Origin: Escherichia coli
GTDB taxonomy: Bacteria > Pseudomonadota > Gammaproteobacteria > Enterobacterales > Enterobacteriaceae
NCBI RefSeq assembly: GCF_003018255.1
Contig: NZ_CP027440.1
DNA: 64,000 nt
Direction: 5' to 3' (one strand)
How positions within the stretch are numbered: the stretch's first letter is position 1; the number at the start of each line of letters is the position of its first letter. The position numbers were made by a program, and so were the translations under genes. Below the pieces are notes generated by a model that was not told the DNA's origin, did not search any database, and saw only the letters and a list, made by a program, of their open reading frames with translations. Of this stretch, positions 57,619-61,725 are shown piece after piece.

Positions 57619-57651
57619 CCCTCTCCCTTAGGGAGAGGGTTAGGGTGAGGG
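57619..57651. repeat. boxC-like GC-rich intergenic repeat (copy 1, pepA-holC spacer)
   Basis: CCCTCTCCCTTAGGGAGAGGGTTAGGGTGAGGG; shares an identical 21-bp core GGGAGAGGGTTAGGGTGAGGG with 61689-61725. Confidence 0.6.
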
Positions 57652-57663
57652 TAAAACGCAAAC

Positions 57664-59175
57664 TTACTCTTCGCCGTTAAACCCAGCGCGGTTTAACAGG
57701 AACTGTGCCAGCAACGCTACCGGACGACCGGTTGCGCCTTTTGCTTTACCAGAACGCCAGGCGGTTCCTGCAATATCCAGGTGAGCCCAGTTATACTTAC
57801 GGGTAAAGCGTGACAGGAAGCAACCTGCGGTAATCGCCCCACCAGGACGACCGCCAATGTTCGCCATATCGGCAAAATTGGACTCCAGTTGTTCCTGATA
57901 CTCGTCACCCAGCGGTAAGCGCCATGCGCGGTCACCGGATTGTTCAGACGCGGCAATCAGTTCATGGGCCAGCGGATTATGGTTCGCCATCAGACCAGTA
58001 ATATGATGACCCAGCGCGATCACGCAGGCACCGGTCAGCGTCGCCACGTCAATCACTGCTTCCGGCTCAAAACGTTCAACGTAAGTTAACACGTCGCACA
58101 GTACCAGGCGGCCTTCGGCATCGGTGTTCAGCACTTCAACGGTTTGACCGGACATGGTGGTTAACACATCGCCCGGACGATAGGCACGCCCGCCAGGCAT
58201 GTTTTCACAGCCTGCCAGCACGCCAATAACGTTAATCGGCAGTTGCAGCTCCGCGACCATACGCATCACGCCGTAAACCGCCGCCGCGCCGCACATATCG
58301 TACTTCATCTCATCCATGCCTTCTGAAGGCTTGATGGAGATACCGCCGGAGTCGAAGGTTAAACCTTTACCCACCAGCACGATTGGGCGTGCATCTTCCG
58401 ACGCGTTGCCTCTGTACTCAATCACCGACATCAGCGATTCGTTTTGTGAACCCTGACCGACCGCCAGATAAGAGTGCATTCCCAGCTCTTTCATCTGCTG
58501 TTCGCCGATAACGCGGGTGATGACATTCTTGCTGTAGCTGTCAGCCAGCTGGCGCGCCTGAGAGGCGAGATAAGCGGCGTTACAGATATTCGGCGGCATA
58601 TTACCGAGATCTTTCGCTGCTTTTATCCCGGCGGCAATCGCCAGACCGTGCTGGATCGCGCGCTCACCGCTGGTCAGTTCACGGCGGGTCGGCACGTTGA
58701 ACACCATCTTACGCAGCGGGCGACGCGGTTCGCTCTTATTCGTTTTCAACTGATCGAAACTGTAGAGCGTCTCTTTTGCTGTCTCGACAGCCTGACGCAC
58801 TTTCCAGTAGTTGTTACGGCCTTTAACGTGCAGTTCAGTCAGAAAGCAGACCGCTTCCATCGAGCCAGTATCATTCAGCGTATTAATGGTTTTCTGAATA
58901 ACCTGCTTGTACTGACGCTCATCCAGCTCACGTTCTTTGCCGCAACCAATAAGGAGAATTCGCTCGGAAAGTACATTCGGAACATGGTGCAGCAACAGTG
59001 TCTGCCCCGGTTTTCCTTCCAGTTCGCCCCGACGTAGCAGGGCGCTGATGTACCCATCGCTGATTTTATCGAGCTGTTCTGCAATCGGAGAAAGGCGACG
59101 TGGTTCGAAGACGCCCACGACGATGCAGGCACTCCGCTGTTTCTCCGGGCTACCGCTTTTTACACTAAACTCCAT
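57664..59175 (-). CDS. pepA: leucyl aminopeptidase PepA (XerB)
   Basis: 503-aa ORF, M17 peptidase family (NTDAEGRL motif). Confidence 0.95.
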
Positions 59176-59441
59176 GCACTACGCTCCTGAATCTTAAAGA
59201 CAACGGCGGTGGCTACAGATAGAATTGCAAGCTTTCGTAACTCATGTCCGCTGTTGCGATGACTTCGTGTTAATCTTAACGTTATTACGGCATTGGCACG
59301 TCAGAACAAAATCTGAGAGGTGAATCCGTTGAGTATAATTATCTTAGCGACGATTTCGACGACTCAAGAGAATAAATGACGTTTAAGCCATGAAACAAGC
59401 TAAAATCCTGCAAAAGACGAGTTTTTACGGGCGTATTTAAA

Positions 59442-60542
59442 GTGATAATCATAAGATATCTGGTGCGGGAGACGCTCAAAAGCCAGCTGGCGATACTCTT
59501 CATCTTGCTTTTGATCTTCTTCTGTCAAAAGTTAGTGAGGATCCTCGGCGCAGCGGTTGACGGCGATATTCCGGCGAATCTGGTGCTCTCCCTTCTCGGG
59601 TTGGGCGTGCCGGAAATGGCGCAGCTTATCCTGCCATTAAGCCTGTTCCTCGGGCTGCTGATGACGCTGGGCAAACTGTATACCGAAAGTGAAATTACGG
59701 TAATGCATGCCTGCGGCCTGAGCAAAGCGGTTCTGGTGAAAGCGGCAATGATCCTTGCGGTATTCACGGCAATCGTCGCGGCGGTTAACGTGATGTGGGC
59801 GGGACCGTGGTCATCGCGTCATCAGGATGAAGTGTTAGCAGAAGCGAAAGCGAACCCTGGCATGGCGGCGCTGGCGCAAGGGCAATTCCAGCAAGCGACT
59901 AATGGCAGCTCGGTGCTGTTCATCGAAAGCGTTGACGGCAGCGATTTCAAAGATGTGTTCCTCGCGCAAATTCGACCAAAAGGTAATGCACGTCCTTCTG
60001 TGGTGGTGGCCGATTCCGGACATTTAACCCAGCTGCGCGACGGCTCCCAGGTCGTCACTCTCAACCAGGGAACGCGCTTCGAAGGCACTGCACTGTTACG
60101 TGATTTCCGCATTACGGACTTCCAGGATTATCAGGCGATCATTGGTCACCAGGCGGTGGCGCTCGACCCGAACGATACCGACCAGATGGACATGCGCACA
60201 TTGTGGAACACTGACACCGATCGTGCCCGTGCAGAACTGAACTGGCGTATCACGTTGGTATTCACCGTGTTTATGATGGCACTTATGGTCGTACCGCTGA
60301 GCGTGGTTAACCCGCGTCAGGGACGCGTACTGTCGATGCTGCCAGCCATGCTGCTGTATCTACTTTTCTTCCTGATCCAGACCTCCCTGAAATCGAACGG
60401 CGGTAAAGGTAAGCTGGACCCGACGCTGTGGATGTGGACCGTTAACCTGATTTATCTGGCTTTGGCGATTGTTCTCAACCTTTGGGACACCGTGCCGGTC
60501 CGCCGCCTGCGCGCCAGTTTTTCGCGTAAAGGAGCGGTGTGA
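59442..60542 (+). CDS. lptF: LPS export ABC transporter permease LptF
   Basis: 366-aa ORF, GTG start, MIIIRYLVRETLKSQ. Confidence 0.9.
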   Translation: MIIIRYLVRETLKSQLAILFILLLIFFCQKLVRILGAAVDGDIPANLVLSLLGLGVPEMAQLILPLSLFLGLLMTLGKLYTESEITVMHACGLSKAVLVKAAMILAVFTAIVAAVNVMWAGPWSSRHQDEVLAEAKANPGMAALAQGQFQQATNGSSVLFIESVDGSDFKDVFLAQIRPKGNARPSVVVADSGHLTQLRDGSQVVTLNQGTRFEGTALLRDFRITDFQDYQAIIGHQAVALDPNDTDQMDMRTLWNTDTDRARAELNWRITLVFTVFMMALMVVPLSVVNPRQGRVLSMLPAMLLYLLFFLIQTSLKSNGGKGKLDPTLWMWTVNLIYLALAIVLNLWDTVPVRRLRASFSRKGAV

Positions 60543-61624
60543 TGCAACCTTTTGGCGTACTTGACCGCTATATCGGTAAAACTATTTTCACCACCATCAT
60601 GATGACGCTGTTCATGCTGGTGTCGCTGTCGGGCATTATCAAGTTTGTCGATCAGCTGAAAAAAGCCGGGCAGGGGAGTTACGACGCGTTAGGCGCAGGA
60701 ATGTATACCTTGCTGAGCGTGCCGAAAGATGTGCAAATCTTCTTCCCGATGGCGGCTCTGCTTGGGGCGTTGCTTGGTCTTGGGATGCTGGCGCAGCGCA
60801 GCGAACTGGTGGTGATGCAGGCTTCTGGTTTTACCCGTATGCAGGTAGCGCTGTCGGTGATGAAAACCGCCATTCCACTGGTCTTGCTGACGATGGCGAT
60901 TGGCGAATGGGTCGCGCCGCAGGGCGAGCAGATGGCGCGTAACTACCGTGCGCAGGCGATGTACGGCGGCTCGTTGCTCTCTACCCAGCAAGGCTTATGG
61001 GCGAAAGATGGCAACAACTTCGTCTACATTGAGCGGGTTAAAGGTGACGAGGAGTTAGGTGGCATCAGTATTTATGCCTTTAACGAGAATCGTCGTCTGC
61101 AATCCGTACGTTATGCCGCTACCGCGAAGTTTGACCCGGAACATAAAGTCTGGCGTCTGTCGCAGGTTGATGAATCTGACCTGACCAATCCGAAACAGAT
61201 TACCGGTTCGCAGACGGTGAGCGGCACCTGGAAAACCAACCTCACGCCAGACAAACTGGGCGTGGTGGCGCTGGACCCGGATGCACTCTCCATCAGTGGT
61301 TTGCACAACTACGTGAAGTATCTGAAGTCGAGCGGTCAGGATGCCGGACGTTATCAGCTCAACATGTGGAGCAAAATCTTCCAGCCGCTATCCGTGGCGG
61401 TGATGATGCTGATGGCGCTGTCGTTCATCTTTGGCCCACTGCGTAGCGTACCGATGGGCGTGCGTGTGGTCACCGGTATCAGCTTCGGTTTTGTCTTCTA
61501 CGTACTGGACCAGATCTTCGGCCCGCTGACGTTGGTTTATGGCATCCCGCCGATCATCGGCGCACTGTTGCCAAGCGCCAGCTTCTTCTTAATCAGCCTG
61601 TGGCTGTTAATGAGAAAATCGTAA
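60542..61624 (+). CDS. lptG: LPS export ABC transporter permease LptG
   Basis: ORF track frame 60539..61624 (GTG); ATG at 60542 gives 360 aa MQPFGVLDRYIGKTIF; start overlaps the lptF stop. Confidence 0.9.
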   Translation: MQPFGVLDRYIGKTIFTTIMMTLFMLVSLSGIIKFVDQLKKAGQGSYDALGAGMYTLLSVPKDVQIFFPMAALLGALLGLGMLAQRSELVVMQASGFTRMQVALSVMKTAIPLVLLTMAIGEWVAPQGEQMARNYRAQAMYGGSLLSTQQGLWAKDGNNFVYIERVKGDEELGGISIYAFNENRRLQSVRYAATAKFDPEHKVWRLSQVDESDLTNPKQITGSQTVSGTWKTNLTPDKLGVVALDPDALSISGLHNYVKYLKSSGQDAGRYQLNMWSKIFQPLSVAVMMLMALSFIFGPLRSVPMGVRVVTGISFGFVFYVLDQIFGPLTLVYGIPPIIGALLPSASFFLISLWLLMRKS

Positions 61625-61632
61625 TCTAACAA

Positions 61633-61660
61633 GGGAGCGAAAGCTCCCTTTATTATTGTT
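61633..61660 (+). terminator. intrinsic terminator after lptG
   Basis: GGGAGC-gaaa-GCTCCC followed by TTTATTATTGTT. Confidence 0.7.
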
Positions 61661-61688
61661 GACAAAGTCAAATACGAGTTCGAACGGT

Positions 61689-61725
61689 CCCCTCGCCCCT
61701 TTGGGGAGAGGGTTAGGGTGAGGGG
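61689..61725. repeat. boxC-like GC-rich intergenic repeat (copy 2, lptG-yjgR spacer)
   Basis: CCCCTCGCCCCTTTGGGGAGAGGGTTAGGGTGAGGGG; minus-strand ORF 61537..61728 (PLTLTLSPKGRGD) is just its translation. Confidence 0.6.

What the first reader, a model, noticed from the sequence alone, without database searches (positions are those of the whole stretch)
57619..61725. Two copies of a boxC-like GC-rich repeat sharing an identical 21-bp core
GGGAGAGGGTTAGGGTGAGGG occurs at 57631-57651 (pepA-holC spacer) and 61705-61725 (lptG-yjgR spacer), each preceded by a complementary C-rich arm that could form a hairpin. Their translation produces spurious PLTLTLSP-type ORFs. Their function is unknown.
Basis: partly seen in the sequence, partly recalled or inferred. 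Interest (0 to 1): 0.25.

Follow-up and report, generated by a model that had tools for sequence, protein, structure and literature searches.

The report
BoxC repeats, linked to DUF559 nuclease
The two GC-rich repeats are ordinary copies of the long-known E. coli BoxC repeat, whose function is unknown, but tracing the family across bacteria showed that the same three-block module forms the inverted ends of small cassettes encoding a YcjD-type (DUF559) endonuclease, which gives this 30-year-old orphan repeat a testable partner enzyme.

Summary
GGGAGAGGGTTAGGGTGAGGG occurs exactly twice, at 57631-57651 and at 61704-61724 (the finding was one base off). Both copies are intergenic, and each is preceded by a C-rich arm.

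The repeat is already described under four names. It is BoxC, the PIT element, TMECO type A (Holder 2015) and the G-quadruplex motif HPG1 (Kaplan 2016). Copy 2 is identical over 36 nt to three K-12 copies.

Both sites are polymorphic. BoxC is present in 26% (pepA-holC) and 33% (lptG-yjgR) of 5,426 complete E. coli genomes. K-12 carries REP/BIME there instead, and related genera carry REP in the pepA-holC spacer, so BoxC is the derived state at that site.

The new result concerns the module itself (pyrimidine arm, complementary purine block, mirror purine block).
- The exact 21-mer occurs across many phyla.
- DUF559 genes found by protein similarity alone are flanked by such modules as inverted repeats in 14 of 16 testable loci.
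- This also holds in low-GC genomes, and one cassette sits in frame inside priA.
- In Escherichia, a BoxC doublet overlaps the ycjD stop codon.

I conclude that the window's copies are orphan ends of such cassettes. That the nuclease acts on them is inferred, not shown.

The parts
57608..57652 (+). BoxC copy 1 (TMECO type A, perfect). It consists of the 5' flank CTCGATCGGTT (57608-57618), the pyrimidine arm CCCTCTCCC (57619-57627), the loop TTA, purine block 2 GGGAGAGGG (57631-57639), TTA, and purine block 3 GGGTGAGGG (57643-51). It lies 12 nt 3' of the pepA stop codon and 77 nt 5' of the holC start on the minus-strand transcript.
   Evidence: The flank plus module match K-12 TMECO no. 2 in the hrpB-mrcB spacer.
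57561..57655 (.). Allele-specific segment of the pepA-holC spacer. It replaces the REP/BIME found in K-12 and in related genera. It contains copy 1 plus a unique 47-bp left part with a degenerate block TCCTCACCC (57570-57578).
   Evidence: Alignment with K-12, WB61 and JNE23-011. Outgroup contigs carry REP. The segment is present in 1411 of 5426 E. coli genomes, at one place each.
61679..61725 (+). BoxC copy 2 (TMECO type 'A mm'). It consists of the 5' flank TTCGAACGGT (61679-61688), the arm CCCCTCGCCCC (61689-61699), the loop TTT, block 2 GGGGAGAGGG (61703-61712), TTA, and block 3 GGGTGAGGGG (61716-61725). It lies 17 nt 3' of the yjgR stop codon and downstream of the lptG terminator.
   Evidence: The 36-mer 61690-61725 is identical to K-12 TMECO nos 7, 11 and 15. 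The flank CGAACGGT is shared with K-12 no. 17.
61669..61726 (.). Allele-specific 58-bp segment of the lptG-yjgR spacer, about the size of one full BoxC unit. K-12 and JNE23-011 carry a REP-containing ~100-bp segment in its place.
   Evidence: Alignments. 1792 of 5426 genomes cover at least 80% of a 91-bp junction-spanning query.
61631..61650 (+). Context only: the intrinsic terminator hairpin of lptG, followed by a T tract. It is separate from the repeat and conserved in both alleles.

Best explanation
Both sites are solo 'type A' copies of the BoxC / PIT / TMECO / HPG1 repeat.

Each copy is a unit of about 45 bp with five elements:
- a conserved flank CGAWCGGT;
- a pyrimidine arm;
- a short loop;
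- a purine block that is the Watson-Crick complement of the arm;
- after TTA, a second purine block that is the mirror image of the first.

On a single strand the first two blocks make a 9-10 bp hairpin. The third block can then lie along it as a purine-motif triplex, or the four G-runs can form a quadruplex.

I propose that the module is not a host regulatory device. It is the terminal inverted-repeat module of small selfish cassettes that encode a YcjD-type DUF559 (Vsr-fold, PD-(D/E)xK) endonuclease, in the way REP sequences go with RAYT genes. Doublets would be gene-less derivatives, and singlets such as these two would be orphan ends.

In this lineage they replaced REP/BIME elements. They now sit as near-neutral passengers in the 3' untranslated regions of pepA and yjgR, where the RNA hairpin may incidentally act as a REP-like 3'-exonuclease barrier.

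Shown: the identity of the repeat, the polymorphism, and the association with DUF559 genes and its geometry. Inferred: that the nuclease recognises or cleaves the folded module and thereby spreads or destabilises it.
For: Identity. The 21-mer and 36-mer are identical to published K-12 copies. A 60-bp query finds a median of 17 places per E. coli genome, in 5425 of 5426 genomes.

Gain at these sites. K-12 has REP/BIME at both spacers. Three contigs from related genera (HolC 86-91% identical) also have REP in the pepA-holC spacer.

Breadth. They come from Pseudomonas, Bradyrhizobium, Polaromonas, Verrucomicrobiales, Gracilibacteria, deltaproteobacterial MAGs and an archaeal MAG. The arm is present in 121 of 122 copies, and most copies are in inverted A+B doublets.

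DUF559 link, starting from the motif. All three DUF559 ORFs in those loci abut a module.

DUF559 link, starting from the protein.
- 14 of 16 testable close homologues in viral contigs are flanked by inverted repeats scoring 32-133, above every control window of their own locus (control maxima 19-88). These repeats are hairpin plus third block.
- None of 53 distant Vsr-like loci scores 32 or more.
- Three of four low-GC (33-39% GC) families from assemblies show the same arrangement.

Movement as a unit. Module-DUF559-module is inserted in frame in a PriA gene, just before its Walker A motif.

Escherichia. A complete (-) module overlaps the ycjD stop codon and is followed 46 bp later by a (+) type A module. 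K-12 has a partial copy plus TMECO no. 9. YcjD ends in ...SPSP, which is encoded by the repeat.

Covariation. In four lineages with asymmetric blocks, the arm tracks block 2 by complementarity and block 3 tracks block 2 by mirror symmetry. There are 0 mismatches under the mirror rule and 2 under a direct-repeat rule (sequences).
Against: - No DUF559 gene lies in the window.
- E. coli ycjD has modules only on its 3' side.
- ycjD is single-copy and absent from 38% of E. coli genomes, which still carry BoxC.
- Both geometries occur, with the third block either next to the gene or outermost.
- No target-site duplication is seen at either window site.
- PD-(D/E)xK nucleases are not known to catalyse transposition on their own.
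- The protein-first sample is small, is partly redundant (L131/L134, L132/L135), and comes from IMG/VR contigs of uncertain origin.
- The flanking modules could be the insertion target of the gene rather than its ends.
- Published tests found no promoter, terminator or conjugation effect and no in vivo triplex footprint.
Confidence: 0.6

Rival explanations
1. BoxC is an independent structure-forming repeat (an intrastrand triplex, or a G-quadruplex/hairpin switch) that spreads or persists on its own and causes local genome instability. On this view DUF559 genes are secondary invaders that home into the centre of existing doublets, so the modules are their target and not their ends.
For: - Single strands form a triplex in vitro, and TMECO loci are more variable than controls.
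- CD studies support a G4/hairpin equilibrium (abstract).
- ViennaRNA gives G4 -12.6 against hairpin -10 kcal/mol as DNA.
- Many genomes hold dozens of doublets with no DUF559 gene in the loci sampled.
- 38% of E. coli genomes lack ycjD but keep BoxC.
- A 122-bp tandem duplication abuts copy 1 in strain WB61.
Against: - The PriA insertion carries both modules into a conserved coding sequence, where no doublet is expected beforehand.
- Modules next to the gene are lineage-specific variants that recur as left-end and right-end pairs.
- No triplex footprint was seen in vivo.
Confidence: 0.22
2. The copies serve the host at RNA level. A stable hairpin just after the pepA and yjgR stop codons would protect the upstream mRNA from 3' exonucleases or tune expression of the downstream gene, as REP/BIME elements do.
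For: - Both copies lie 12-17 nt after a minus-strand stop codon, in the same orientation.
- The RNA hairpin of copy 1 is -17.9 to -20 kcal/mol, z -2.6 to -3.3.
- REP/BIME elements occupy exactly these positions in other strains.
Against: - Copy 2's minus-strand RNA fold is no better than shuffles, z -0.68.
- No T tract follows either copy, and the terminator scan finds only the lptG terminator.
- The literature reports no terminator or promoter activity and no orientation or gene-class bias.
- RNA protection does not explain identity of the 21-mer across phyla.
Confidence: 0.12
3. The repeat is a chance similarity or part of a conserved coding sequence.
For: Short ORFs overlap both copies.
Against: - 0 of 100 shuffles give a match.
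- The sites are intergenic in RefSeq.
- The overlapping ORFs are 31-63 aa, two of the three start with TTG or GTG, and they differ in frame between copies.
- The segment is absent from 67-74% of E. coli genomes.
Confidence: 0.01

Closest known systems
BoxC (Bergler 1992; Bachellier 1999) = PIT elements (Hoyne and Maher 2000/2002) = TMECO (Holder et al. 2015, PMC4666352)
   Same: Same sequence. Copy 2 is identical over 36 nt to K-12 TMECO nos 7, 11 and 15, and copy 1 is one loop base from no. 2. Both are intergenic, dispersed and multi-copy, and belong to type A (TTA second loop).
   Different: These two loci are empty of BoxC in K-12, which has REP/BIME there. The published work did not connect the repeat to any gene.
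HPG1 putative G-quadruplex/hairpin switch (Kaplan et al. 2016, PMC5100583)
   Same: The 21-mer is letter-for-letter HPG1, with four G3 runs and 3-nt loops preceded by a complementary arm.
   Different: Nothing here shows a regulatory switch. As RNA, the hairpin is predicted to be far more stable than the quadruplex.
REP/BIME-RAYT (REPIN) systems
   Same: Both are short structured intergenic repeats that occur as singlets and inverted doublets and flank a single-copy nuclease-type gene in inverted orientation. BoxC occupies the same 3'-UTR niches, and REP is the allelic alternative at both window sites.
   Different: The sequences are unrelated. The associated protein has a Vsr-fold PD-(D/E)xK domain (DUF559), not an HUH Y1 transposase. 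The module has a third, mirror-symmetric block.
MITEs derived from insertion sequences by internal deletion
   Same: Gene-less inverted doublets of 90-180 bp share their ends with gene-carrying units.
   Different: No target-site duplication was seen, there is no recognised transposase, and the two ends are distinct subtypes (A and B).
Free-standing homing endonuclease genes and intein-like in-frame insertions
   Same: A small nuclease gene is inserted in frame in a conserved essential gene (PriA, L105), and its distribution is patchy and selfish-looking.
   Different: Homing endonuclease genes do not usually carry structured terminal inverted repeats or leave dispersed repeat families.
Vsr very-short-patch repair endonuclease
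   Same: DUF559 has been reported as a Vsr relative (PMC1189080). The closest solved structure is 3HRL, 'endonuclease-like protein'.
   Different: There is no associated cytosine methyltransferase context here, and the substrate is unknown.

Membership tests
BoxC / PIT / TMECO | Three consecutive blocks on one strand: a pyrimidine arm, its complementary purine block, and a second purine block antiparallel-compatible with the first (G.G-C, A.A-T, T.A-T). | tested here: met
   Read directly. GGGAGAGGG against reversed GGGTGAGGG gives 7 G.G, 1 A.A and 1 T.A. Copy 2 has the single mismatched triplet of Holder's 'A mm' type.
BoxC / PIT / TMECO | Sequence identity to published family members. | tested here: met
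   Table 1. Copy 2 equals nos 7, 11 and 15 (36/36). Copy 1 differs from no. 2 by one loop base.
BoxC / PIT / TMECO | Intergenic, dispersed and multi-copy in E. coli. | tested here: met
   Intergenic by RefSeq annotation. Median 17 places per genome, range 1-34, in 5425 of 5426 genomes.
BoxC / PIT / TMECO | The single strand forms an intramolecular triplex in vitro. | not testable with these tools
   Literature only (Holder 2015). The same paper found no triplex footprint in vivo.
BoxC (original 56-bp consensus) | Match to the 56-bp consensus of Bergler and Bachellier. | not testable with these tools
   The original papers are not in the held library. The allele-specific segment at lptG-yjgR is 58 bp. 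Petrillo 2008 lists BoxC with a 50-bp model against 56 bp in the literature.
HPG1 G-quadruplex motif | The 21-mer G3N3G3N3G3N3G3 with loops AGA/TTA/TGA. | tested here: met
HPG1 G-quadruplex motif | A quadruplex actually forms and competes with the hairpin. | tested here: inconclusive
   ViennaRNA gives G4 -12.6 kcal/mol against hairpin -10 (DNA parameters) or -18 to -23 (RNA). The G4 energies are not DNA-specific.
REP / BIME | REP consensus palindrome with a conserved 5' GTAG-type tetranucleotide. | tested here: not met
   The sequences are unrelated. REP/BIME is what K-12 and the outgroup contigs carry in place of BoxC. Recognition of REP rests on my knowledge of its consensus.
Intrinsic terminator | A GC-rich hairpin directly followed by a T/U tract. 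| tested here: not met
   Of the 5 terminator-like sites found in 57400-61900 (no more than in shuffles), only the lptG hairpin at 61631-61650 lies in either spacer and none overlaps a BoxC copy. No T run follows either copy on either strand.
Rfam RNA families | Match to any curated covariance model. | tested here: not met
   Over the repeats there are only sub-threshold chance hits: Antizyme_FSE at 19 bits and whalefall-1 at 16 bits.
MITE | Terminal inverted repeats plus a target-site duplication at the insertion. | tested here: not met
   The window copies are singlets. No duplication is visible at the boundaries of either allele-specific segment.
DUF559-flanking module (grouping proposed here) | Homology to modules that abut a YcjD-type DUF559 gene. 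| tested here: met
   The Escherichia ycjD 3' doublet contains a (+) type A module with the same 21-mer and an ATCGGT flank. K-12 doublets share their inner spacer with it.
DUF559-flanking module (grouping proposed here) | A DUF559 gene adjacent to the copy. | tested here: not met
   No DUF559-like ORF occurs anywhere in the 64-kb window. The window copies are therefore orphan modules.
DUF559-flanking module (grouping proposed here) | The nuclease binds or cleaves the module. | not testable with these tools
   This needs biochemistry.

The most novel reading that the evidence does not exclude
BoxC/PIT/TMECO modules and YcjD-type DUF559 endonucleases form a widespread, previously unrecognised repeat-nuclease system analogous to REP-RAYT.

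The nuclease would recognise the folded three-block module, a hairpin plus a mirror purine strand (a triplex-type structure). The recognition form is still to be established.

This would account for three things: the spread of the module across phyla, its strict sequence conservation, and the local genome instability reported around it. The window's copies would be orphan ends of this system.
Probability: 0.5. Interest if true: 0.8.

Novelty: already known. Interest (0 to 1): 0.5.

Why it matters
As a feature of this window the finding is ordinary. It is two more copies of a repeat catalogued since 1992, at sites where about a quarter to a third of E. coli strains carry it.

It matters because BoxC has stayed an orphan. 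Published work showed triplex and quadruplex formation in vitro but found no promoter, terminator or in vivo structural signal, and could only link the repeat to 'instability'.

A consistent physical association with a nuclease gene of equally unknown function (DUF559/YcjD, with a solved structure, 3HRL, but no known activity) turns two open questions into one experiment. It would add a second REP-RAYT-like system, built on a different enzyme fold. The mirror-symmetry covariation is sequence evidence, not selected by a triplex-search rule, that the three-block geometry is under constraint.

Tried and rejected
- **Rfam scan of 56.5-62.8 kb at permissive E-value.** Nothing real over the repeats.
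- **Terminator and promoter scan.** Only the lptG terminator lies in either spacer; none of the 5 terminator-like sites overlaps a repeat, and their number is no higher than in shuffles.
- **Larger transposed unit.** I looked for the left 83 bp of the pepA-holC spacer elsewhere in E. coli. It is unique to this locus.
- **Target-site duplications** at both allele boundaries. None.
- **Conserved T two bases before the arm.** It is present in 114 of 121 motif-selected copies and looked like a possible cleavage signature. It is not conserved in DUF559-flanking modules and the sample is dominated by two Pseudomonas genomes, so I dropped it.
- **A module upstream of E. coli ycjD.** Only an unrelated 16-17 bp hairpin is there.
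- **Motif-derived peptides at DUF559 protein termini.** Present in 12 of 120 hits, but most ORFs stop at the domain edge, so this test is weak.
- **A T:G mismatch (arm against block 3 in 'A mm' copies) as a Vsr-like substrate.** It fits copy 2 but is untested, so it stays as speculation only.
- **One literature search on 'BoxC'** was swamped by BoxCar hits.
- **Literature link between the two.** Searches for DUF559, YcjD, PF04480 and COG2852 found 43 and 13 papers, none linking them to BoxC. Papers outside the held library cannot be excluded.
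Full report
**Observation**

GGGAGAGGGTTAGGGTGAGGG occurs exactly twice in the window, at 57631-57651 and at 61704-61724. The finding's second coordinate is one base too high. There are no further matches at up to three mismatches, and none in 100 dinucleotide shuffles.

The window is E. coli chromosome. Both spacers hit about 5,425 of 5,426 complete E. coli genomes. RefSeq annotation of near-identical DNA gives valS-holC-pepA on the minus strand, ytgA-lptF-lptG on the plus strand and yjgR on the minus strand.

- Copy 1 lies between the pepA stop (57664-66) and the holC start (57528-30).
- Copy 2 lies between the lptG terminator (61631-61650) and the yjgR stop (61743-45).
- The C-rich arm of copy 1 is a perfect complement of the adjacent block.
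- The arm of copy 2 has a G opposite an A there, and pairs better (one G.T) with the distal block.
- The PLTLTLSP-type ORFs are real but short and unannotated.

**What it is called**

Holder et al. 2015 (PMC4666352) treat BoxC, Maher's PIT elements and their own 'TMECO' as one family and list the 23 K-12 copies.

- Copy 2's 36-mer is identical to their nos 7, 11 and 15 (type 'A mm').
- Copy 1 is one loop base from no. 2 (type A).
- Kaplan et al. 2016 (PMC5100583) give the same 21-mer as G-quadruplex motif HPG1, with 13 identical copies in MG1655.
- Petrillo et al. 2008 list BoxC among known E. coli stem-loop families.

Neither window site is among the K-12 loci. The published functional picture is negative. 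The elements show no promoter, terminator or conjugation effect, no gene-class or orientation bias, and a triplex in vitro but no footprint in vivo. They show only an association with local variability. No Rfam family matches.

**Anatomy and folding**

Read directly from the sequence, block 3 is compatible with block 2 in antiparallel purine-motif pairing (7 G.G-C, 1 A.A-T, 1 T.A-T).

- As RNA, copy 1 folds into a 9-bp hairpin on either strand (-17.9 to -26.7 kcal/mol depending on flanks; z -2.6 and -3.3).
- Copy 2 is not distinguishable from shuffles (z -0.7 and -0.9).
- With quadruplex energies allowed, the G4 (-12.6) beats the hairpin only under DNA parameters.
- Neither copy is followed by a T tract.

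**Polymorphism at the two sites**

K-12 (ER1821R) carries REP/BIME sequences in place of a 95-bp segment (57561-57655) and of a 58-bp segment (61669-61726). JNE23-011 has BoxC at the first site and REP at the second.

- The pepA-holC BoxC allele is in 1,403-1,411 of 5,426 genomes.
- The lptG-yjgR BoxC allele is in 1,792 of 5,426 genomes.
- Three contigs whose HolC is 86-91% identical, that is from other enterobacterial genera, have REP-type sequence in the pepA-holC spacer. REP is therefore ancestral there and BoxC is a gain.
- No target duplication marks either boundary.
- The conserved 5' flanks CTCGATCGGT (copy 1) and CGAACGGT (copy 2) recur at K-12 copies nos 2 and 17, so the unit is longer than the 34-36 nt usually quoted.

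**Beyond E. coli**

They come from Pseudomonas (more than 25 loci in each of two genomes), Bradyrhizobium, Polaromonas, Contendobacter, Verrucomicrobiales, Gracilibacteria, deltaproteobacterial MAGs and one Methanomicrobiaceae MAG.

The pyrimidine arm is present in 121 of 122 copies, although only the 21-mer was required. Most copies are one half of an inverted doublet whose partner has a CTG/CCG-type second loop. These doublets form regular 90-180 bp units, as Holder noted for five K-12 pairs.

**The DUF559 link**

In two doublets with wider spacing, the sequence between the copies is a ~120-aa ORF that is Pfam DUF559 (E 1e-38 and 7e-31). A third DUF559 ORF in the same loci also abuts a module.

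I then sampled DUF559 genes by protein similarity only.

- Of the 24 closest homologues in viral contigs, 16 have enough flank to test. Fourteen of these are bracketed by inverted repeats scoring 32-133, each above every control window of its own locus (control maxima 19-88).
- The repeats are a pyrimidine/purine hairpin plus a third purine block, with 2-60 nt between blocks 2 and 3.
- None of 53 testable distant Vsr-like loci reaches 32.
- Four further families fetched from assemblies at 33-39% GC gave three clear cases. L212 is an example: CCCTCCCC-aactt-GGGGAGGG-taa-GGGTGGGG, 24 nt, ATG ... stop, 20 nt, then the mirror-image module. The fourth case was weak.
- In L105 the whole unit, module-DUF559-module, sits in frame inside a PriA gene just before its Walker A motif. 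This argues that the gene and the modules travel together.

**Covariation**

Where block 2 is not itself mirror-symmetric, the arm follows it by complementarity and block 3 follows it by mirror symmetry.

| Locus | Block 2 | Block 3 |
|---|---|---|
| L129 | GGGAGAAGG | GGTTGAGGG |
| L126 | GGGAGAAGG | GGATGAGGG |
| L212 | GGGGAGGG | GGGTGGGG |
| L141 | GGGAGAGGA | TGGTGAGGG |

Each pair has zero mismatches under the mirror rule and two under a direct-repeat rule (sequences). These modules were not selected by any triplex criterion.

**Escherichia**

ycjD (b1289) is the E. coli DUF559 gene. It lies next to fabI, which from memory is the envM locus where BoxC was first described.

- In an Escherichia assembly (L209), a complete (-) module overlaps the last ycjD codons. 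It is followed 46 bp later by a (+) type A module carrying the window's 21-mer.
- K-12 has a 12-nt-shorter partial copy at the stop codon, a duplicated remnant of the ycjD 3' end, and TMECO no. 9.
- YcjD's C-terminus ...SPSP is repeat-encoded.
- The inner spacer of the K-12 lldD-trmL doublet shares GCTGTATGT with this ycjD doublet.
- ycjD is single-copy, in 3,378 of 5,426 genomes. A 2026 paper shows it alternates with eefRABCD at that site (PMC12817139).
- The closest solved structure is 3HRL, an uncharacterised 'endonuclease-like protein'. YcjD has been reported as a Vsr relative (PMC1189080).

**Interpretation**

Certain: the finding is BoxC/TMECO-A/HPG1.

Well supported: the module is an integral flank of YcjD-type DUF559 cassettes in many lineages, and E. 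coli BoxC is homologous to such flanks.

Inferred: the nuclease acts on the folded module, doublets are gene-less derivatives, and the window's copies are orphan ends with at most an incidental REP-like RNA role.

Points against:
- E. coli ycjD has modules on one side only.
- BoxC persists in the 38% of genomes without ycjD.
- Both module orientations relative to the gene occur.
- There is no target duplication.
- The protein fold has no known strand-transfer chemistry.
- The sample is small.
- The flanks may be the gene's target rather than its ends.

**Prior knowledge**

Searches of the held library for DUF559, YcjD, PF04480, COG2852 and the 21-mer found no paper connecting the two. Work outside that library cannot be excluded.

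**Verdict**

As a feature of this window the repeat is already known and of low interest. I raise the score to 0.5 because following it produced a concrete, testable partner for an orphan repeat family.

Noticed in passing
L003:5112-5406 (E. coli WB61), corresponding to window ~57490-57608: Strain WB61 carries a 122-bp tandem duplication that includes the 5' end of holC. Its junction lies directly at the left edge of BoxC copy 1 (…GCGCTCG|GTGGTG…). This is an example of the local instability reported around these repeats.
   Followed up: partly
window 58423-58617 (+): There is a full-length Rfam match to Ysr276 (Yersinia sRNA 276; 185.8 bits, E 6e-57). It lies inside and antisense to the pepA coding sequence, so the family model may simply capture conserved pepA sequence.
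   Followed up: no
The ORF stays open across all PriA domains.
   Followed up: partly
L124:1705-1985 (K-12 fabI-ycjD spacer): The last ~50 bp of ycjD are duplicated about 110 bp downstream (1822-1870 against 1936-1985), next to TMECO no. 9. In some E. coli strains the ORF reads on through this region (proteins P0005 and P0011 end in ...RVRGCMSLFVAGVTIFAQYGP.APLGRGLG).
   Followed up: partly
window 57549-57592: An imperfect inverted repeat ATTGCTGCAT / ATGAGCAAT encloses a degenerate block TCCTCACCCTGAAAGA. A similar CCCTCACTCTGAAAC lies in the inner spacer of the K-12 lldD-trmL doublet, so the pepA-holC insert may be the right two-thirds of a doublet.
   Followed up: partly
window 61625-61640 against L001/L002: Strains with the REP allele at lptG-yjgR also carry a 9-bp insertion (GAACGAATA) between the lptG stop and its terminator. 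They differ at the codons around the stop, so the two alleles sit on diverged haplotypes.
   Followed up: no
NZ_CP074792.1:1629-1664 (E. coli plasmid, 154,743 bp): A 36-bp BoxC copy identical to copy 2 lies on a plasmid, and 52 of 88,810 BoxC places are on plasmids. Holder et al. reported no association with plasmids.
   Followed up: no
L071, L021-L025: The exact bacterial 21-mer, with its arm, is present in a Methanomicrobiaceae archaeal MAG contig (2.7 kb) and on large contigs of a Candidatus Gracilibacteria MAG. The archaeal case could be a binning artefact.
   Followed up: no
listing (E2348/69, strains 1105, SCU-115): The number of BoxC places per genome for the same 60-bp query ranges from 2-4 in some strains to 15-23 in most and 34 at most. 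I did not determine whether this tracks phylogroup or ycjD presence.
   Followed up: no
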